Both the position numbers and the translations under genes were made by a program. From Escherichia coli O157 typing phage 13, in the sequence record KP869111: a stretch of DNA of 64,000 bases; one strand, written 5' to 3'. Positions 23,916 to 30,333 of the stretch are shown piece after piece. Under the pieces are notes generated by a model that did no database searches, had not been told where the DNA came from, and worked only from the letters and a program-made list of their open reading frames with translations. Position 1 is the stretch's first letter; each line of letters starts with the position of its first letter.

Positions 23916-24095
23916 TTATTCACCAATTAAAGTTTCAACAAAATTCACCAAAGCATTCTGGCACGCATCAACCTGATTTTCATAAAAGTCTCCGTTATCA
24001 TTTACCGCGTGATAAGCTACATCATTCAAATCTGAATCGGCTTCACGTAGGTCACGGATAAGGTCCATCAATTTATTAGCTTGTTCACGGGTCAT
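23916..24095 (-). CDS. Small acidic protein, 58 aa (not in ORF track)
   Basis: Hand-translated MTREQANKLMDLIRDLREADSDLNDVAYHAVNDNGDFYENQVDACQNALVNFVETLIGE; ATG overlaps the stop of the upstream small ORF (ATGA). Confidence 0.35.
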   Translation of the reverse strand: MTREQANKLMDLIRDLREADSDLNDVAYHAVNDNGDFYENQVDACQNALVNFVETLIGE

Positions 24096-24202
24096 TTTAC
24101 CATACTCGTTTCAATAAGATTCACTATGCCGTTTACCATGTTATAAGTAAACATCGGATAATTGTATTGTACTACAACATAAGCGATAAGCAAAAGTTTC
24201 AT
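24092..24202 (-). CDS. Small hydrophobic peptide, 37 aa (not in ORF track)
   Basis: Hand-translated MKLLLIAYVVVQYNYPMFTYNMVNGIVNLIETSMVK; GGAGA Shine-Dalgarno 5 nt upstream; first ORF after the early promoter at 24231-24260. Confidence 0.3.
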   Translation of the reverse strand: MKLLLIAYVVVQYNYPMFTYNMVNGIVNLIETSMVK

Positions 24203-24230
24203 TTTGTTCTCCGTTTGTTTTGGTAGGACT

Positions 24231-24260
24231 ACTATAACATAGTCCTACCAAGATGTAAAC
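24231..24260 (-). promoter_or_regulatory. T4-type early promoter inside a palindromic cassette
   Basis: Minus strand GTTTAC (24260-24255), 18-nt spacer, TATAGT (24236-24231); 10-bp inverted repeat GGTAGGACTA/TAGTCCTACC spans 24222-24249; cassette near-identical to 34476-34512. Confidence 0.6.
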
Positions 24261-24466
24261 TACCGATTGTGTTTTAAATGTTGATAAAGTTCTTCAACTT
24301 GTTTTGGGTCTAAAACAATTAGGTCATTTTCTTGGCGAAGATAAATCCATCCCTTATCCCCAGGACCATTTTTACAAAACATTGCCACCATATCATCATC
24401 TTCAGCGCTTTCAGGTAAAAGTTCAAGCACACCGTCTTCAGATTTTCTAGTATAATCGTAAAGCAT
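24260..24466 (-). CDS. Hypothetical small acidic protein
   Basis: Track ORF 24260-24493; ATG at 24466 has a GAGGA Shine-Dalgarno; 68 aa. Confidence 0.45.
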   Translation of the reverse strand: MLYDYTRKSEDGVLELLPESAEDDDMVAMFCKNGPGDKGWIYLRQENDLIVLDPKQVEELYQHLKHNR

Positions 24467-24473
24467 AATATCC

Positions 24474-24653
24474 TCACATAATCTCGTTAACATACATTTG
24501 CAATTCAGTGTGGGCGTCGGCCATCTTTTTCATAGCTCTGTTAATGTCGATGTCTCCATCTTCGCACCCATGAGCATTTTCCCAATCAGATACCGCATTA
24601 GCATACTCTTCAATCAAAAACATCAACTTAGAAATCTTTTCTTTACGTGTCAT
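24474..24653 (-). CDS. Small protein, 59 aa (not in ORF track)
   Basis: Hand-translated MTRKEKISKLMFLIEEYANAVSDWENAHGCEDGDIDINRAMKKMADAHTELQMYVNEIM; GGAGA Shine-Dalgarno; follows the promoter at 24681-24709. Confidence 0.4.
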   Translation of the reverse strand: MTRKEKISKLMFLIEEYANAVSDWENAHGCEDGDIDINRAMKKMADAHTELQMYVNEIM

Positions 24654-24680
24654 AGCGTTCTCCTATAGTAAGTAAGGACT

Positions 24681-24709
24681 ACTATAACACAACCTGAGGA
24701 GAAGTAAAC
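24681..24709 (-). promoter_or_regulatory. T4-type early promoter with anti-Shine-Dalgarno inverted repeat
   Basis: Minus strand GTTTAC (24709-24704), 17-nt spacer, TATAGT (24686-24681); 7-bp inverted repeat TTCTCCT (24658-24664) / AGGAGAA (24697-24703), one arm being the Shine-Dalgarno of the 59-aa ORF. Confidence 0.55.
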
Positions 24710-24715
24710 TGATAG

Positions 24716-24748
24716 ATGCCAAAAAGCCCCAACCATAAGGAAGGGGCT
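24716..24748 (-). terminator. Rho-independent terminator after rI
   Basis: Minus strand AGCCCC-(12 nt loop)-GGGGCT followed by TTTTTG. Confidence 0.6.
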
Positions 24749-24754
24749 AGTAAA

Positions 24755-25057
24755 TTAGATAGATGTAGGCTCTAATTTTATTTTCATGAACTCGGCAAAT
24801 TGTCTGGCAGTTTTTATGCCTTGTTCATGACATTCAAATGCATCATCACAGGGACTATTTTTGTAATGCTTTGCCATATACTTATAGAATTTTTCAGAAT
24901 TCTCGACATTTTGAATTTCAAACAAAGTATATACGTTTTTAATCCCTGATTCCATAAAGTTATCAAAATATGGGTCGATATATGCAGTACCAACGATAGG
25001 AGTTGTTGCTGCAAAAAACCCCAGCATCGCCATGACAGCTATCGCTCTTAAGGCCAT
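24755..25057 (-). CDS. rI: Lysis inhibition regulator rI (membrane-anchored periplasmic protein)
   Basis: 100 aa; signal-anchor then DPYFDNFMESGIKNVYTLFE...CDDAFEC, matching recalled T4 RI (97 aa); AGGAGG Shine-Dalgarno. Confidence 0.8.
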   Translation of the reverse strand: MALRAIAVMAMLGFFAATTPIVGTAYIDPYFDNFMESGIKNVYTLFEIQNVENSEKFYKYMAKHYKNSPCDDAFECHEQGIKTARQFAEFMKIKLEPTSI

Positions 25058-25069
25058 ATAGGCCTCCTG

Positions 25070-25282
25070 TTAATTTTGGCCAGTATTTATTTTTCGCCTT
25101 TGGACGGCCTTAACATCTGTGAGGTATTTTTCCAGCTTGCGCTTGCGTGTATAATCAGCTTTAGAACCAGTTTGACGGATATCCTCGTTTAAATGAGAAA
25201 TAGAATGTCCTAATTCTCTTCGGATTTCATCCAATTGGGTTACAGTAAGATTACGAAGTTGTCTTTCGTTTAATTGCTGCAT
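25070..25282 (-). CDS. Hypothetical protein
   Basis: 70 aa; AAGAGGT Shine-Dalgarno; basic helical composition. Confidence 0.5.
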
Positions 25283-25309
25283 ATATACCTCTTGGTTAGA
25301 TATTAGTAT

Positions 25310-25891
25310 TTATAACAACCCTGTCAAATCATTCCAATGCTTCCGGCATAATGACACGTATCTATCGGTATCACCAATTTCAATTTGACTGCCATCTGTA
25401 ATTGGAAGTCCGTCTTCCGTGACTCTAGCTACCATTGTGGCCTTTTTACCGCAATGACAGACACCTTTAAGTTCAACAAGCTTATCGGCAATAGCCATTA
25501 ATGCTTGAGAACCTTCAAATAGATTACCTTTAAAATCTGTTCGTAGTCCATATGCCATTACTGGCACATTGTATACGTCAACAATACGACTAAGTTGATA
25601 CACCTTTTCAGTAGTTAAGAACTGAGCTTCGTCAACAAATACACAGTGAATATCCTTTTGTGCTGCAGCCCATTTATAGAATTCAAAGATATCCATGTCT
25701 TTTGTAATTATATTGGCATCCTGACGAATACCAATACGAGAGACTATTTCACCTTTTGAATCACGAGTATCAATAGCCGGTTTAAGAACTAATACACCCA
25801 TGCCACGTTCTTTATAGTTATGTGCGGCAGTAAGTAATGAAGAAGACTTACCAGCGTTCATAGCGGCATATGTAAAAATTAAACTAGCCAT
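25310..25891 (-). CDS. tk: Thymidine kinase
   Basis: 193 aa, same as T4 Tk; P-loop MNAGKSSSLL and C-terminal Zn-binding cysteines CHCGKKA...CRKHW; matches recalled T4 Tk. Confidence 0.93.
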   Translation of the reverse strand: MASLIFTYAAMNAGKSSSLLTAAHNYKERGMGVLVLKPAIDTRDSKGEIVSRIGIRQDANIITKDMDIFEFYKWAAAQKDIHCVFVDEAQFLTTEKVYQLSRIVDVYNVPVMAYGLRTDFKGNLFEGSQALMAIADKLVELKGVCHCGKKATMVARVTEDGLPITDGSQIEIGDTDRYVSLCRKHWNDLTGLL

Positions 25892-25900
25892 AAGAGTCCC

Positions 25901-26083
25901 TTATAGTGAATTCACGTAGTCAATGAGTTCTTGTTCTTTCCTGTCAAATGATTCCAACAATGCTTGATATTCTTCATCTGTTAAAGGAGCATATTCATCG
26001 TACGCATTGGTGGCTGCTTGCTCATCCAATAGGTCATGGATAAGTTCGAATAGTTTAGCTTTCTCTTCTTTAGTTAATTTCAT
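25901..26083 (-). CDS. Hypothetical small acidic protein (T4 tk.1 position)
   Basis: 60 aa ORF immediately upstream of tk. Confidence 0.45.
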   Translation of the reverse strand: MKLTKEEKAKLFELIHDLLDEQAATNAYDEYAPLTDEEYQALLESFDRKEQELIDYVNSL

Positions 26084-26286
26084 TTAGGTTCACCTTCTTT
26101 AACGAAATCTGGGTAAGGGTAAAATCCTGAGTAAAACCCTTCACCTTTATGATTGCTACAACCTTTGTTCGAACAGTAACACCAATAATCAAAATCACAA
26201 GCCATTTCGTCATTGCATAAAGCAAAAACTACAGGCCATTCGCATTTTTCGCATTTAGCACCTGTAAGAATTTTTGTTTGACTCAT
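26080..26286 (-). CDS. Hypothetical cysteine-rich small protein
   Basis: Track ORF starts with TTG; ATG at 26286 overlaps upstream stop; 10 Cys in 68 aa (CEKCEW...CNDEMACDFDYWCYCSNKGC). Confidence 0.45.
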   Translation of the reverse strand: MSQTKILTGAKCEKCEWPVVFALCNDEMACDFDYWCYCSNKGCSNHKGEGFYSGFYPYPDFVKEGEPK

Positions 26287-26495
26287 AACCATGTCACCTT
26301 TAAGCAATATTCTTCTACATGTTGTTTACGGCCTTTCTTATCAATAAAGGTATATTCAACGAATGTTCCGATGTAGTCTTTATCTACATCATGTGGACTA
26401 TTAATTGGACATTTGGTACGACAAATGCGTTCCCATTGACGAATAATTACTGCCTTATTCTTTGGGTCATATGGATGTGGATAATGTATATTCAT
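26283..26495 (-). CDS. Hypothetical protein
   Basis: Track ORF starts with TTG; ATG at 26495 (MNIHYPHPYDP...) overlaps upstream stop; 70 aa. Confidence 0.45.
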   Translation of the reverse strand: MNIHYPHPYDPKNKAVIIRQWERICRTKCPINSPHDVDKDYIGTFVEYTFIDKKGRKQHVEEYCLKVTWL

Positions 26496-26989
26496 AATAA
26501 CGGTTCCCAATCAACAATCACAATTTCTAGTTTAGTGGAATACGTATCTAAAATCTCTTCGATGACATCCCAGTTTCCGCCACCGATACCTGCACCAATT
26601 CTTGGCATATAAATTACAGGCTTTGTTATCTTATTCTTTCCGAATTCATTTAATTCTATTATACAATTCATTAAAGCAGAGTACTCAAAATTAGGTCCCG
26701 GCTCAAACTGCGTATAAAGATTAAAGCAATAAGCTTTATGGGTCTTAAAATATTTTTCATAAACCGAATAAGTCCCGAGTTTAGACTCGTCTCCGAATTC
26801 GGTTTGAAGTTTATCGGCTTCCAGAATTTTTGGATAAGCCTTTGCTAATTGTCCTGCCACACCGGCGCCCATTGTATGAAAACAATTACACCCATGAGCA
26901 ATATTATTACCTTTAGAAAACAGGGCGACAATATCGCCCTTGATATAGTTTTTAATCACTTGCTGCAAGTCCTCTAGTATAAGAGTCAA
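26492..26989 (-). CDS. Macrodomain-like protein (candidate ADP-ribose binding/hydrolase); start codon uncertain (TTG/GTG)
   Basis: 165 aa; two glycine-rich loops at macrodomain-like spacing: HTMGAGVAGQLAKAYP and IYMPRIGAGIGGGNW; no in-frame ATG near the N-terminus. Confidence 0.5.
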   Translation of the reverse strand: MTLILEDLQQVIKNYIKGDIVALFSKGNNIAHGCNCFHTMGAGVAGQLAKAYPKILEADKLQTEFGDESKLGTYSVYEKYFKTHKAYCFNLYTQFEPGPNFEYSALMNCIIELNEFGKNKITKPVIYMPRIGAGIGGGNWDVIEEILDTYSTKLEIVIVDWEPLL

Positions 26990-27299
26990 CTAGACGGTCC
27001 ACCATAGAATTGCATGCTGCCTTATCTTTAGGTTCCGCCACCGAGCATTCTAATATTTGCCATTTTTTATAGTATCTTTTAATTAAGGTAGACGCCTTGA
27101 ACCTACTAGACGCCCCATCTTTTTCTCCGTCTTTATACGCGTATAACAATTTTTGTGAAAAATCTACTTTACACTCTTGACTTTTACCACAATAATCAGA
27201 CGCCGTTCTGTTTGTATACTCCGTTACATCAGTATATGTAGTATTAGCAAGAGCGTTAAATGAAACCAAGCTAACTATTAAAGCCAACATTTTGGTCAT
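26952..27299 (-). CDS. Secreted protein with signal peptide (T4 vs position by synteny)
   Basis: 115 aa (the T4 Vs length); N-terminal MTKMLALIVSLVSFNALA signal peptide; four Cys; ATGA-coupled to the upstream gene. Confidence 0.5.
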   Translation of the reverse strand: MTKMLALIVSLVSFNALANTTYTDVTEYTNRTASDYCGKSQECKVDFSQKLLYAYKDGEKDGASSRFKASTLIKRYYKKWQILECSVAEPKDKAACNSMVDRLVDSYTRGLAASD

Positions 27300-27838
27300 T
27301 CTTTTATTTCCAGTAGTTTATTTGATTTAAGGTAATTAGCCTTTTCTAGGACTTCAGAAGCATATTTACTTCCAGCACTTGTCTTCCATCCCGCATTATA
27401 TGAGGATATGGCTTTTCTTATATCCCCGTTATGTATATTTAACCAATAAGAAAATTCGATATAAGCCCATCTGGCTGAATTAGACCGCTTAGATAGCATT
27501 TTCTTAATTTGGGCATCAGTCATATTATAACCAAGCTGGTTAATTCTTGCCCTCATTGTTGGTAGATAGTTTTGGAACATTCCATACGCATGGTGACCTT
27601 TCTTATCTTTAAGATTAATACCGGCAGATGATTCTTGCCATAGTATTGCGGCCATTATGTATCCAAGTCCTTTCTTATGCATATTTTCATGCGTTTTAAA
27701 TTTTCCATCCTTAGAAAACTGTTCCCCAAACTGATAAGCATAATTCAAGTTATCGAGTTGGACATTACTAAAAGTATGCTCGGAGCTATGTGCTGATAAC
27801 GAAAGAGCAAATAGACCAGCGAGTAGTGCTTTTCTCAT
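27296..27838 (-). CDS. Secreted lytic transglycosylase-like protein (SLT domain candidate)
   Basis: 180 aa; signal peptide MRKALLAGLFALSLSAHS; motif AAILWQESSAGINLKDKKGHHAYGMFQ resembles the SLT catalytic Glu-Ser and GLMQ-type motifs. Confidence 0.55.
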   Translation of the reverse strand: MRKALLAGLFALSLSAHSSEHTFSNVQLDNLNYAYQFGEQFSKDGKFKTHENMHKKGLGYIMAAILWQESSAGINLKDKKGHHAYGMFQNYLPTMRARINQLGYNMTDAQIKKMLSKRSNSARWAYIEFSYWLNIHNGDIRKAISSYNAGWKTSAGSKYASEVLEKANYLKSNKLLEIKE

Positions 27839-27846
27839 GTTTACCT

Positions 27847-28305
27847 CTAGATTTTAATCACTGCTTTAGAAGCTTTTCCTGGTAGTCGTTTACTGTTAAT
27901 AATAGCCATTCTGCATTGAAGAGTCTTCATTTTGAATGCTGGATTTTCGCGACAAACTGTAAGTCCTAACCAAAGATTTCCATCAGTTATTTCTAAACGG
28001 CCTGGGCGATATTCGACACCTTCGACAAAATCTTCATCAACATCTGGACGGGCTGGCATTGATAAAAATTCTGCAACTTCTTTAACATGATTTTTTACTT
28101 TATGAAATAATTCAAAAACGTAATTCTCATCTATTTCTCTCTGGATGGCACGATCTAAGAGATGTTGAGAATACTTGATATGAAAGCCTGGTAGTCCAAG
28201 AGACTTTGCAGCATCTTTTATACTGGCATTTATTTTGCGGAACTCCGTTTCAAAGATTCGACGGAGTTTATTGCGGCGGATAAAAACGTCTGAATTGATA
28301 GTCAT
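27847..28305 (-). CDS. regB: Endoribonuclease RegB
   Basis: 152 aa; MTINSDVFIRRNKLRR...YSQHLLDRAIQREIDE...GVEYRPGRLEITDGNLWLG...LQCRMAIINS.RLPGKASKAVIK matches recalled T4 RegB (153 aa). Confidence 0.75.
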   Translation of the reverse strand: MTINSDVFIRRNKLRRIFETEFRKINASIKDAAKSLGLPGFHIKYSQHLLDRAIQREIDENYVFELFHKVKNHVKEVAEFLSMPARPDVDEDFVEGVEYRPGRLEITDGNLWLGLTVCRENPAFKMKTLQCRMAIINSKRLPGKASKAVIKI

Positions 28306-28313
28306 TTTGATTT

Positions 28314-28354
28314 CTCCTCTAGTTGACAGGTCTATAGTAACACAACTAGAGGAG
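28314..28354 (-). promoter_or_regulatory. 12-bp inverted repeat sequestering the regB Shine-Dalgarno
   Basis: CTCCTCTAGTTG (28314-28325) and CAACTAGAGGAG (28343-28354); on the mRNA the 3' arm carries GAGGAG 8 nt before the regB ATG. Confidence 0.55.
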
Positions 28355-28362
28355 AAGTAAAC
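28334..28362 (-). promoter_or_regulatory. T4-type early promoter located within the regB hairpin
   Basis: Minus strand GTTTAC (28362-28357), 17-nt spacer, TACTAT (28339-28334); -10 lies in the loop of the inverted repeat. Confidence 0.55.
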
Positions 28363-28661
28363 TACTCTTTGAAAGGAATTAACTTTTTAACTGCTTTAGA
28401 TACTTCGTCACGAACCTGGTGGAAGTTCTTGAGCTGTTCAAGGCGTTGTTCGTAATACGCAATCTCATCTTCTTCAAGACAATCGTCAGCGTCTTCTTTC
28501 AGATATGCCTTGTACTCATTAAAGAGGGCCCATAGGCGGTTCTCAAAGTCATCAAGGCTTTGAATTTTCTTGTGCTTCGGAACAAGGCCAAAAGGATTGC
28601 TTTCAGTTATGCGTCGAGATGCTTCATAATGAGTTCCAAAGCCTGATAGGATTTGAGCCAT
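28362..28661 (-). CDS. Hypothetical protein
   Basis: Track ORF 28362-28703; ATG at 28661 overlaps upstream stop; 99 aa. Confidence 0.5.
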
Positions 28662-28906
28662 TAGTATTTTTCCTCTGGTTGAAATACCGCACGACAAGCC
28701 CACATACTAGCTTCCTTTAGGCGTTCTTTAGCACAGTTCAATTGGGACAAAGCTGTCAAAGCTTCAGGAGTATTCGCAGACAACGCTTCTTCCGCCAAGG
28801 CATCGAAAATAAGCCCTAATCGAACTTCTGCATCTTTAATAGCGTTCACTTTACCGATTTTATCATCGGTATGCGGCTTGTAGCCTTTGATGTCTTCAAT
28901 CGACAT
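28661..28906 (-). CDS. Hypothetical protein
   Basis: Track ORF 28661-29074; ATG at 28906 with GAGGAA Shine-Dalgarno gives 81 aa ([16 protein letters not shown]...). Confidence 0.45.
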
Positions 28907-29120
28907 AAGGAATTTCCTCATCGGTGGCAAGGTCATATTCGACCAATTGGATAGGCTCATTAATACCATATCCACGTACAGTGATATCGGTTGTCGGATA
29001 TTTTCCAGTAATATCACCCATTCTAAATGCTTCAGTGAATGATTGCTCGCCTGAGCAACTAAACCAGGCGGCAAAACATTTTAAAACATCTTCAGACCCT
29101 TCTATAATCAATTTAGCCAT
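28896..29120 (-). CDS. Hypothetical protein
   Basis: 74 aa ORF; start abuts the stop of the glycyl-radical cofactor gene. Confidence 0.45.
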   Translation of the reverse strand: MAKLIIEGSEDVLKCFAAWFSCSGEQSFTEAFRMGDITGKYPTTDITVRGYGINEPIQLVEYDLATDEEIPYVD

Positions 29121-29482
29121 TATAGACTCTCAGTAAAGGTACGAGCGATAACGTCGCGCTGCTGTTCCGGGGTCAGAGAGTTAAAGCGAACTGCATAACC
29201 GGATACACGGATGGTCAGCTGTGGATATTTTTCCGGATGCTTAACTGCATCTTCCAGAGTTTCGCGACGCAGAACGTTAACGTTCAGATGTTGACCACCT
29301 TCAATTTTAACTTTAGGTTGATGTTCAATTTCAATTTCACGGGCATTCAAACCGTAGAAAATTTCCGGGTCTACAATAGCGTCTTCTTTAAAAGTCTTAG
29401 AGACGATAATCCGGGCTTGAGTACCGTCTTCAAAATAAATAGTGCCTTTATGTGCACCTTCAAGAATTTGATATGCTTTCAT
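29120..29482 (-). CDS. Autonomous glycyl radical cofactor (GrcA/YfiD-like)
   Basis: 120 aa; C-terminal glycyl radical motif [25 protein letters not shown]; T4 is known to encode a YfiD homologue in this region. Confidence 0.8.
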
Positions 29483-29488
29483 ATAACC

Positions 29489-29797
29489 TCAATTAGAAAA
29501 TAAATTTATCCAAGTTTTTTCTTTAATCAAAAATGGGTCAGAACTAAACGCCATTAAACTTTGAGTGATTAATCCCTTAAATGGCCCATCAATAAATTCC
29601 ATTTTGAAATGCGGAATACTAGTCATCAACCGTGCGTTAGGAGCAGTACAAAGAACCTGCTGCCCTGCGAACGGACCTTTAGTCAAACGGTATCGTTTAG
29701 GTTTAAAATGGTAAATCTCGTAATTTTCTACAAGAGCCCTTTTATTGCATACTGGGCTGTTATAACAATATTCAAAAACTTCAATAGTGGTCATCAT
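29489..29797 (-). CDS. Hypothetical protein
   Basis: 102 aa; ATGA overlap with upstream gene. Confidence 0.5.
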   Translation of the reverse strand: MMTTIEVFEYCYNSPVCNKRALVENYEIYHFKPKRYRLTKGPFAGQQVLCTAPNARLMTSIPHFKMEFIDGPFKGLITQSLMAFSSDPFLIKEKTWINLFSN

Positions 29798-30333
29798 TGC
29801 ATTCCAATCACAAAAAATTGAGGACGAGCATTACCGCCGATGCAATATTTGCTTTTGCAGCAGTACTGTACTGTTTTAATATGGACATTGTAAATCTTAT
29901 CCATATCAGGAGCTTTAATAGGCTCGTCAATTATATACAGAATACGAGAAAGCGTTAATCCACGGAATTTAGAACCTTCATTGCCAATAAAACTACGAAC
30001 AGAATCAGTAAATAAACGGAATCGAATATCATCGCTAGAATAACGAGAAAATTCTTTTTCAATGTTACCAGCAGAAATTTTAGCATAAGCTGAAGTATTA
30101 GAAAGAACAATAACTGTTCCGCCATCATACAGCCAATTAGCAGCAAAGTTAGTCACAGCAATTGATTTACCGGATTGTCTGCCACCGTCTAAACGAAGTG
30201 TACAGTACTGCTTGAGTACGTCTTCAAACGGTGGGATATAACCGTTCTTACAAATTTCTTCTACTCTAGCATCAGAATGGTGTGTAAAAGCATTCATCAG
30301 GGATAGATAAGGTCCAGTTAAAAATGTTCTCAT
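29794..30333 (-). CDS. Small P-loop NTPase-like protein
   Basis: 179 aa; Walker A-like LDGGRQSGKS and Walker B-like RILYIIDEP. Confidence 0.5.
   Translation of the reverse strand: MRTFLTGPYLSLMNAFTHHSDARVEEICKNGYIPPFEDVLKQYCTLRLDGGRQSGKSIAVTNFAANWLYDGGTVIVLSNTSAYAKISAGNIEKEFSRYSSDDIRFRLFTDSVRSFIGNEGSKFRGLTLSRILYIIDEPIKAPDMDKIYNVHIKTVQYCCKSKYCIGGNARPQFFVIGMQ

What the first reader, a model, noticed from the sequence alone, without database searches (positions are those of the whole stretch)
26492..26989. Macrodomain-like ORF at the tk.4 position with a non-ATG start
The 165-aa ORF has two glycine-rich loops (HTMGAGVAGQLAKAYP and PRIGAGIGGGNW) spaced as in the diphosphate- and ribose-binding loops of macrodomains. 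A phage macrodomain could reverse ADP-ribosylation, either counteracting host ADP-ribosylating defences (DarT-type) or tuning the phage's own Alt/ModA/ModB-type modifications. The N-terminus has no ATG, implying a TTG or GTG start.
Basis: inference. Interest (0 to 1): 0.6.

Follow-up and report, generated by a model that had tools for sequence, protein, structure and literature searches.

The report
Phage tk.4/AdfM macrodomain, GTG start

Summary
The ORF is real, but the gene is 155 aa (window 26492-26959, minus strand), starting at GTG 26959, not the 165-aa TTG-to-stop ORF. The GTG aligns codon-for-codon with the ATG of T4 tk.4 and about 30 relatives. Two 99%-identical phages carry an in-frame TAG between the TTG and the GTG.

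The window matches E. coli O157 typing phages 3/6 (Mosigvirus) at 100%. There the CDS is annotated from the same GTG as "macro domain protein" or "phosphatase". It is 85% identical, without gaps, to T4 Tk.4 and sits in the same tk-tk.1-tk.2-tk.3-tk.4-vs-vs.1-regB order.

A 2025 preprint found that T4 tk.4 is the single hit needed on a DarTG2 host and named it AdfM. The DarT-type reading is therefore supported by orthology.

One nuance: the family has an invariant Gln where DarG and TARG1 have their catalytic Lys, as in SCO6735. SCO6735 cleaves thymidine-linked ADP-ribose from DNA. The protein works like DarG's macrodomain but is not a DarG.

Verdict: already known, low interest.

The parts
26492..26959 (-). 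tk.4 / adfM coding sequence: 155 aa plus TGA stop, a stand-alone macrodomain
   Evidence: Annotated CDS in NC_041864 and KP869104. 85% identity over 155 aa with no gaps to T4 Tk.4. Pfam Macro above its gathering score. AF2 pLDDT 95.4.
26957..26959 (-). GTG start codon
   Evidence: Codon-aligned with the ATG of T4 and about 30 relatives. Also GTG in L004-L006 and L013.
26960..26989 (-). 30-nt upstream extension of the maximal ORF (TTG 26989-26987), not part of the gene; it is the 3' end of vs
   Evidence: An in-frame TAG lies in this stretch in the 99%-identical L004 and L005. The second TTG is TCG in L006. No homology upstream of ORF residue 11 in relatives below 95% identity.
26970..26974 (-). 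Shine-Dalgarno-like GAGGA, 10 nt upstream of the GTG, inside vs
   Evidence: Read from the sequence. T4 has the same GAGGA 11 nt upstream of its ATG.
26952..26959 (-). 8-nt overlap GTGATTAA between the tk.4 start and the vs stop (TAA 26954-26952); likely translational coupling
   Evidence: T4 has a 4-nt ATGA overlap instead. Coupling itself is an inference.
26852..26872 (-). Glycine-rich loop 1, M30-G-A-G-V-A-G36
   Evidence: Aligns with RMGAGIA of TARG1 and VMGKG of DarG.
26570..26605 (-). Glycine-rich phosphate-binding loop 2, P119-RIGAGIGGGN-W130
   Evidence: G122 and G124 align with SCO6735 G126/G128 and TaqDarG G117/G119. P119, I121, G122 and G124 are invariant in 65 homologues.
26708..26710 (-). 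Codon of Gln84, at the position of the catalytic Lys of DarG (K80) and TARG1 (K84) and of the essential Gln85 of SCO6735
   Evidence: hmmalign and hmmsearch alignment. Invariant in 65 of 65 homologues.
26885..26896 (-). H22-G-C-N25 motif. N25 corresponds to TaqDarG N22, SCO6735 N27 and PhiKZ AdfM N23. H22 corresponds to SCO6735 H24.
   Evidence: H22 is invariant and N25 is present in 64 of 65.
26922..26940 (-). 8-bp GC-rich hairpin followed by GUUUUCU, inside codons 7-13 of tk.4; role unknown
   Evidence: Terminator-like hit. Folding energy -13 kcal/mol, conserved in T4, with a different sequence but the same pairing in L028 and L029.
26952..27299 (-). Upstream neighbour vs (valyl-tRNA synthetase modifier)
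26283..26495 (-). Downstream neighbour tk.3, whose ATG overlaps the tk.4 stop (ATGA)

Best explanation
The gene is the Mosigvirus (RB69-like) ortholog of T4 tk.4, recently renamed adfM. It encodes a 155-aa stand-alone macrodomain of the ALC1/TARG1/DarG class.

Translation starts at GTG 26959. It is probably coupled to termination of the upstream vs gene through the 8-nt overlap GTGATTAA, helped by a GAGGA 10 nt upstream.

The protein most likely binds the ADP-ribose that the host toxin DarT2 attaches to thymidines in single-stranded phage DNA and hydrolyses the ribose-thymine bond. That would restore replicable DNA and let the phage grow on DarTG2-carrying hosts.

Shown here: the gene limits, the orthology, the fold and the active-site layout.

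Taken from the literature for the T4 ortholog: the anti-DarTG2 phenotype.

Inferred: the chemistry, meaning hydrolysis using the invariant Gln84/Asn25 pair and an activated water as in SCO6735, rather than the lysine nucleophile of DarG and TARG1.
For: Identity and limits:
- The window is 100% identical over 6 kb to E. coli O157 typing phages 3/6.
- The CDS is annotated at 26492..26959 as 'macro domain protein' or 'phosphatase'.
- The GTG aligns with the ATG of relatives, and upstream in-frame stops occur in close relatives.

Orthology:
- 85% identity over 155 of 155 aa without gaps to T4 Tk.4.
- Same gene order as T4.

Fold:
- Pfam Macro 28.1 bits against a cutoff of 22.
- AF2 pLDDT 95.4, pTM 0.91.
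- Foldseek top hits are TARG1, Poa1p, BT1257 and Taq/Mtb DarG, all at probability 1.00.

Active site. The aligned residue numbers reproduce those quoted in the papers.
- N25 = TaqDarG N22 = SCO6735 N27.
- Q84 = SCO6735 Q85 = DarG K80 = TARG1 K84.
- G124 = SCO6735 G128 = DarG G119.

Function:
- T4 tk.4 was the single significant HIDEN-SEQ hit on a DarTG2 host, and a clean knockout was sensitised.
- T4 lacking adfA and adfN stayed DarTG2-resistant, which predicted a further factor.
- SCO6735 has Gln at the same position. It cleaves thymidine-linked ADP-ribose from DNA, and Q85A and N27S abolish or nearly abolish that activity.
- A stand-alone DarG macrodomain is sufficient as an antitoxin.
Against: - No experiment exists on this phage's protein. 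The T4 result is a preprint with genetics only, and its authors themselves describe enzymatic removal as 'likely'.
- The catalytic Lys of DarG and TARG1 is absent, replaced by Gln84.
- The basic residue important for DNA substrate in DarG (K29) and SCO6735 (K34) is Ala32 here, and Ala or Ser in the family. SCO6735 K89 is also not conserved.
- The ALC1 macrodomain, which is a binder, also has Gln at this position.
- The GAGGA-to-GTG spacing of 10 nt is longer than optimal.
Confidence: 0.75

Rival explanations
1. It is a small-molecule ADP-ribose-derivative enzyme. Candidates are an ADP-ribose-1''-phosphate phosphatase like yeast Poa1p, or an O-acetyl-ADP-ribose deacetylase. This is what the database names 'phosphatase' and 'A1pp phosphatase motif' imply.
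For: - The HxCNC motif is shared (HGCNC here, HSCNC in Poa1p).
- The positions of the Poa1p residues chosen for mutant structures, H23 and S30, are H22 and T29 here. I counted this correspondence on the alignment.
- tk.4 has carried the A1pp annotation since at least 2006.
- A comparative study argued that phage Macro domains may mainly target soluble ADPr derivatives.
Against: - The only phenotype known for the T4 ortholog is loss of DarTG2 resistance.
- Appr-1''-p phosphatase activity is a common weak side activity of macrodomains (my general knowledge).
- I know of no phage process that produces Appr-1''-p.
Confidence: 0.08
2. It neutralises DarT2 without catalysis. It would act either by binding ADP-ribosylated DNA or by directly inhibiting DarT2, working as a macrodomain 'reader' or inhibitor.
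For: - It lacks the catalytic Lys of DarG and TARG1.
- The Gln position is shared with the non-catalytic ALC1 macrodomain.
- Catalytically dead SCO6735 Q85A still inhibited DarT in vitro.
Against: - SCO6735, with the same Gln/Asn pair, is a fast dT-ADPr hydrolase.
- In TaqDarG the isolated macrodomain K80A mutant did not inhibit DarT; interaction needs the C-terminal domain, which is absent here.
- Invariance of Q84, H22 and N25 across 65 homologues fits an active site.
Confidence: 0.1
3. It reverses the phage's own ADP-ribosylation of host proteins by Alt/ModA/ModB, or ModB RNAylation, to tune the infection programme.
For: T-even phages encode these transferases (general knowledge).
Against: - Alt and Mod modify arginine, which macrodomains of this class are not known to cleave. 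Arginine-specific macrodomains such as MavL form a separate group (title and abstract).
- In the passages I read, the T4 screen reported a tk.4 requirement only on the DarTG2 host.
- tk.4 is not next to alt or mod.
Confidence: 0.04
4. The protein is the full 165-aa ORF, starting at TTG 26989 as in the first reader's coordinates.
For: It is the longest ORF. A weak GGTGGA lies 8 nt upstream of the TTG.
Against: - An in-frame TAG lies between the TTG and the GTG in the 99%-identical L004 and L005.
- T4 has TAG directly before its ATG.
- Residues 1-10 have no counterpart in any relative below 95% identity.
- Both records annotate the GTG.

Confidence: 0.03

Closest known systems
T4 Tk.4 = AdfM (anti-DarT factor Macrodomain), bioRxiv 10.1101/2025.11.20.689424
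   Same: 85% identical over all 155 residues with no gaps. Same gene neighbourhood. Every family-invariant residue is retained.
   Different: The start codon is GTG instead of ATG. A 1-nt difference upstream changes the vs/tk.4 overlap from ATGA (4 nt) to GTGATTAA (8 nt). The host genus is the same but the phage genus differs (Mosigvirus versus Tequatrovirus). The function has not been tested in this phage.
SCO6735 (Streptomyces coelicolor) and BT1257 (Bacteroides thetaiotaomicron) stand-alone macrodomains
   Different: Only 23-29% identity. SCO6735 K34 and K89, which position DNA, are Ala32 and not conserved here. These are bacterial chromosomal genes, not phage genes.
DarG antitoxin of DarTG2 (T. 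aquaticus, M. tuberculosis)
   Different: There is no C-terminal DarT-binding domain: 155 aa against a ~330-position DarG model. Catalytic Lys80 is replaced by Gln, and K29 by Ala. No adjacent darT. It falls far below the NCBIfam DarG cutoff (31.9 versus 250 bits).
PhiKZ gp104, also named AdfM (Cell Rep 2026, PMC13309987)
   Same: A phage-encoded stand-alone macrodomain that counters DarTG2. De-ADP-ribosylation of DNA has been shown in vitro for gp104.
   Different: It belongs to a different macrodomain lineage. gp104 is DarG-like: FPTK motif, phmmer 9e-25 to Mtb DarG, and 133 bits on the PADLOC DarG model against 33 bits for this protein. BLASTP between the two finds only a 23-residue match. 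hhalign gives 96% probability but only 22% identity.
Human TARG1 / OARD1
   Same: Top Foldseek hit. The profile E-value is 9e-17 and alignment is full length.
   Different: The TARG1 catalytic dyad K84/D125 corresponds to Q84/G126 here.

Membership tests
Macro domain (Pfam PF01661) | Profile score above the curated gathering threshold | tested here: met
   28.1 bits against a cutoff of 22, covering profile positions 2-117 of 118.
Macro domain (Pfam PF01661) | Three-layer alpha/beta macro fold with two glycine-rich ADP-ribose-binding loops | tested here: met
Macro domain (Pfam PF01661) | Binds ADP-ribose | not testable with these tools
   Needs ITC or a crystal soak.
ALC1-like class (TARG1 / DarG / SCO6735 / Poa1p) | Closest structural and sequence neighbours belong to this class rather than to MacroD, viral or PARG classes | tested here: met
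T4 Tk.4 / AdfM orthologous group | High full-length identity and conserved position between tk.3 and vs | tested here: met
   85% identity over 155 of 155 aa with no gaps. Gene order is tk, tk.1-tk.3, tk.4, vs, vs.1, regB in both genomes.
T4 Tk.4 / AdfM orthologous group | Required for growth on DarTG2 hosts | not testable with these tools
   Shown only for T4.
DarG antitoxin (NCBIfam NF048014 equivalog) | Score above the equivalog cutoff | tested here: not met
   31.9 bits against a cutoff of 250.
DarG antitoxin (NCBIfam NF048014 equivalog) | C-terminal DarT-binding domain | tested here: not met
   The match covers only positions 4-146 of 338 (NCBIfam) and 4-145 of 329 (PADLOC). The protein ends at residue 155.
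DarG antitoxin (NCBIfam NF048014 equivalog) | Catalytic lysine (TaqDarG K80) | tested here: not met
   The aligned residue is Gln84, invariant in 65 homologues.
DarG antitoxin (NCBIfam NF048014 equivalog) | Encoded next to a darT toxin gene | tested here: not met
   The neighbours are vs and tk.3.
TARG1-type glycohydrolase | Lys84/Asp125 catalytic dyad | tested here: not met
   Gln84 and Gly126 occupy the aligned positions.
SCO6735-type (Gln) DNA de-ADP-ribosylase | Gln85, Asn27 and Gly128 equivalents | tested here: met
   Q84, N25 and G124. The alignment reproduces the published residue numbers.
SCO6735-type (Gln) DNA de-ADP-ribosylase | DNA-positioning Lys34 and Lys89 | tested here: not met
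   Ala32 (Ala or Ser in 59 of 65 homologues) and Glu86, a variable position, at the aligned sites.
Poa1p-type ADP-ribose-1''-phosphate phosphatase | Appr-1''-p phosphatase activity | not testable with these tools
   Sequence and fold similarity only. The H23 and S30 equivalents are H22 and T29, counted by me on the alignment.

The most novel reading that the evidence does not exclude
The Tk.4-type AdfM of T-even phages is not a captured DarG. It is an independent recruit from the Gln-type BT1257/SCO6735 branch of macrodomains. On this reading it removes thymidine-linked ADP-ribose by a lysine-independent, water-mediated mechanism (Gln84/Asn25) and with a DNA-binding surface different from both DarG and SCO6735, since it lacks K29/K34. 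The two phage proteins now both called AdfM (T4 Tk.4 and PhiKZ gp104) would then be convergent solutions from different macrodomain lineages, possibly with different substrate ranges.
Probability: 0.45. Interest if true: 0.3.

Novelty: already known. Interest (0 to 1): 0.12.

Why it matters
It confirms that this RB69-like phage carries the anti-DarTG2 macrodomain found in T4. That is useful for predicting its host range on DarTG2-carrying E. coli.

It also fixes the gene's true start: GTG, 155 aa.

The only point beyond current annotation is the active-site layout. It is of the Gln (SCO6735/BT1257) type, not the DarG lysine type. The two phage proteins that share the name AdfM also belong to different macrodomain lineages. 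This is a modest refinement, not a discovery.

Tried and rejected
- **TTG 26989 and TTG 26968 as starts.** Both rejected from comparative data.
- **Four-sequence MAFFT alignment with TARG1, BT1257 and PhiKZ gp104.** It misaligned the central strand and was discarded. It was replaced by hmmalign to the 65-sequence family profile, whose residue correspondences reproduce published numbering.
- **hhalign of the family against PhiKZ gp104.** It placed a gap at the TQF/PTK motif, so it could not be used on its own for the Lys/Gln equivalence.
- **First structure job.** It was rerun with database homologues.
- **Promoter scan.** The number of sigma70-like sites is no more than in shuffles (11 found against 12.4 expected). 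No promoter is claimed.
- **Literature search for the Poa1p structure paper.** It returned nothing useful.
- **Membership in DarG proper.** Tested and rejected.
- **Not used.** I did not run the large representative-protein search or the metagenome and genome scans, because the answer did not depend on them.

Full report
**What is in the sequence**

The minus strand of the window carries a stop-to-stop ORF at 26492..26989. There is no in-frame ATG before the first glycine loop. The observation as written is therefore correct.

**Source of the window**

Window 24000-30000 is 100% identical to Escherichia coli O157 typing phages 3 and 6. These are Straboviridae, Tevenvirinae, genus Mosigvirus (taxonomy lines), which from my own knowledge is the genus that includes RB69.

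In both GenBank and RefSeq the CDS is annotated at window 26492..26959. GenBank calls it "macro domain protein" and RefSeq calls it "phosphatase". Its neighbours are tdk, three small ORFs, then this gene, the valyl-tRNA synthetase modifier vs, a vs.1-like gene and regB. This is the same order as tk, tk.1, tk.2, tk.3, tk.4, vs, vs.1, regB in T4.

The 155-aa product is 85% identical to T4 Tk.4 over all 155 residues, with no gaps. It is the tk.4 ortholog.

**Start codon**

The real start is GTG at 26959-26957, not TTG at 26989. Six lines of evidence support this.

- Both records annotate the GTG.
- The PHROG 335 match and the tblastn matches to all relatives below about 95% identity begin at ORF residue 11, which is the GTG codon.
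- In 48 related viral loci, the codon aligned to the GTG is ATG in T4 and about 30 others, followed by the same M-I-x-x-Y-I-K-G-D-I N-terminus. It is GTG in the three close Mosigvirus loci and in one other lineage.
- Two 99%-identical loci (L004, L005) have TAG two codons upstream of the GTG, in frame. L006 has TCG where the second TTG would be. T4 has TAG directly before its ATG.
- A GAGGA lies 10 nt upstream of the GTG. T4 has the same GAGGA 11 nt upstream of its ATG.
- The GTG overlaps the end of vs (GTGATTAA, vs stop at 26954-26952), whereas T4 has the classical ATGA overlap. The 1-nt spacing difference accounts for the different vs C-termini. Translational coupling to vs is my inference.

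**Macrodomain identity**

- Pfam Macro (PF01661) scores 28.1 bits, above its gathering score of 22, and covers the whole profile.
- A profile of 65 homologues hits solved macrodomains: BT1257 and TARG1 at about 1e-16, SCO6735 at 9e-14, Poa1p at 4e-13 and Mtb DarG at 1e-12.
- The AlphaFold2 model built on that alignment has mean pLDDT 95.4 and pTM 0.91.
- Foldseek against the PDB returns TARG1, Poa1p, BT1257 and the T. aquaticus and M. tuberculosis DarG macrodomains at probability 1.00.

The protein therefore belongs to the ALC1-like (TARG1/DarG/SCO6735/Poa1p) class.

**Active site**

I recovered the sequences of TaqDarG, MtbDarG, TARG1, BT1257 and SCO6735 from the printed PDB alignments. I aligned them to the family profile with hmmalign.

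The alignment reproduces the residue numbers used in the literature, which validates it:

| Window residue | SCO6735 | TaqDarG | TARG1 |
|---|---|---|---|
| H22 | H24 | | |
| N25 | N27 | N22 | |
| A32 | K34 | K29 | |
| Q84 | Q85 | K80 | K84 |
| G124 | G128 | G119 | |
| G126 | | | D125 |

H22 and Q84 are invariant, and N25 is present in 64 of 65 homologues.

The catalytic lysine of DarG and TARG1 is absent, as is the TARG1 aspartate. The layout matches SCO6735 instead. SCO6735 efficiently cleaves thymidine-linked ADP-ribose from DNA. Q85A/E mutations abolish that activity, and N27S nearly does. A water-mediated mechanism has been proposed for it (PMC9411070).

SCO6735 and BT1257 are close homologues of each other (2e-53). 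BT1257 is the best solved relative of the phage protein.

Against a simple transfer of mechanism, the DNA-positioning lysines K34 and K89 of SCO6735 (and K29 of DarG) are not conserved here.

**Function**

[quoted passage not shown] A clean knockout was sensitised to DarTG2. The authors named the gene adfM and proposed enzymatic removal of ADP-ribose from DNA.

Earlier work had shown that T4 lacking adfA and adfN remains DarTG2-resistant, and had predicted a further factor.

DarT2 ADP-ribosylates thymidine in single-stranded DNA, and the DarG macrodomain alone suffices as an antitoxin.

Given 85% identity and full retention of the invariant residues, the same role is the best explanation here. 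It rests on orthology, not on an experiment with this phage.

**Not a DarG**

- The NCBIfam DarG equivalog model gives 31.9 bits against a cutoff of 250.
- The PADLOC DarG model gives 33 bits on its macro part only.
- There is no C-terminal DarT-binding domain and no adjacent darT.

PhiKZ gp104 was named AdfM independently and has been shown to de-ADP-ribosylate DNA. It is a genuine DarG-type macrodomain: it has the FPTK motif, matches Mtb DarG at 9e-25, and scores 133 bits on the PADLOC DarG model. It is only remotely related to Tk.4. The two AdfM proteins come from different macrodomain lineages.

**Rival explanations**

- The "phosphatase" label goes back to A1pp/Poa1p similarity noted for tk.4 by 2006. 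Poa1p-like activity cannot be excluded from sequence, but no biology points to it.
- A non-catalytic binder or inhibitor role is possible, because ALC1 also has Gln at the key position and dead SCO6735 still inhibits DarT. The invariant active-site residues and the SCO6735 precedent argue for catalysis.
- Reversal of the phage's own Alt/Mod arginine modifications has no support.

**Distribution and novelty**

tblastn finds relatives in 2,800 of 50,697 phage records, across Escherichia, Klebsiella, Salmonella, Pseudomonas, Vibrio, Acinetobacter and Aeromonas phages. Many are already labelled as macro domain proteins.

The gene, its domain and now its role are already known.

Noticed in passing
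window 26922-26940, minus strand (inside tk.4 codons 7-13): There is a GC-rich 8-bp hairpin, AGGGCGAU-AUU-GUCGCCCU, followed by GUUUUCU. It looks like an intrinsic terminator and begins 20 nt after the GTG start (-13 kcal/mol). It is identical in T4-type loci. Distant relatives L028 and L029 keep an 8-10 bp stem with different bases (GGC/GCC changed to GGA/UCC, a compensatory-looking change). Most other lineages lack it. The 86-nt context is not unusually stable (z = -1.5). It could be an early-transcript terminator or attenuator, a translation-modulating structure, or a by-product of Gly-Asp and Ile-Ala codon complementarity.
   Followed up: partly
window 26952-26974, compared with L003 5387-5410 (T4): The ATG-to-GTG difference at the tk.4 start comes with a 1-nt spacing difference upstream. 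This shifts the vs reading frame relative to tk.4. vs ends in ...GLAASD* with an 8-nt overlap here, and in ...GLSTR* with a 4-nt ATGA overlap in T4.
   Followed up: yes
By position and length only 27847-28305 corresponds to T4 regB. 27296-27838 is the vs.1 position, reported elsewhere as SLT transglycosylase-like. The other two are at the vs.7 and vs.8 positions. This looks like an annotation artefact.
   Followed up: partly
literature, not the window: Two unrelated groups gave the same name, AdfM, to two different phage macrodomains: T4 Tk.4 (Gln-type, BT1257/SCO6735-like) and PhiKZ gp104 (Lys-type, DarG-like). The two are only remotely related.
   Followed up: yes
PDB entries 2fg1/2afc versus 5e3b: BT1257 is the structural-genomics 'protein of unknown function' from Bacteroides thetaiotaomicron. 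It is a close homologue of the characterised DNA de-ADP-ribosylase SCO6735 (phmmer 2e-53) and keeps H24, N27, K34 and Q85. It is probably the same enzyme.
   Followed up: partly
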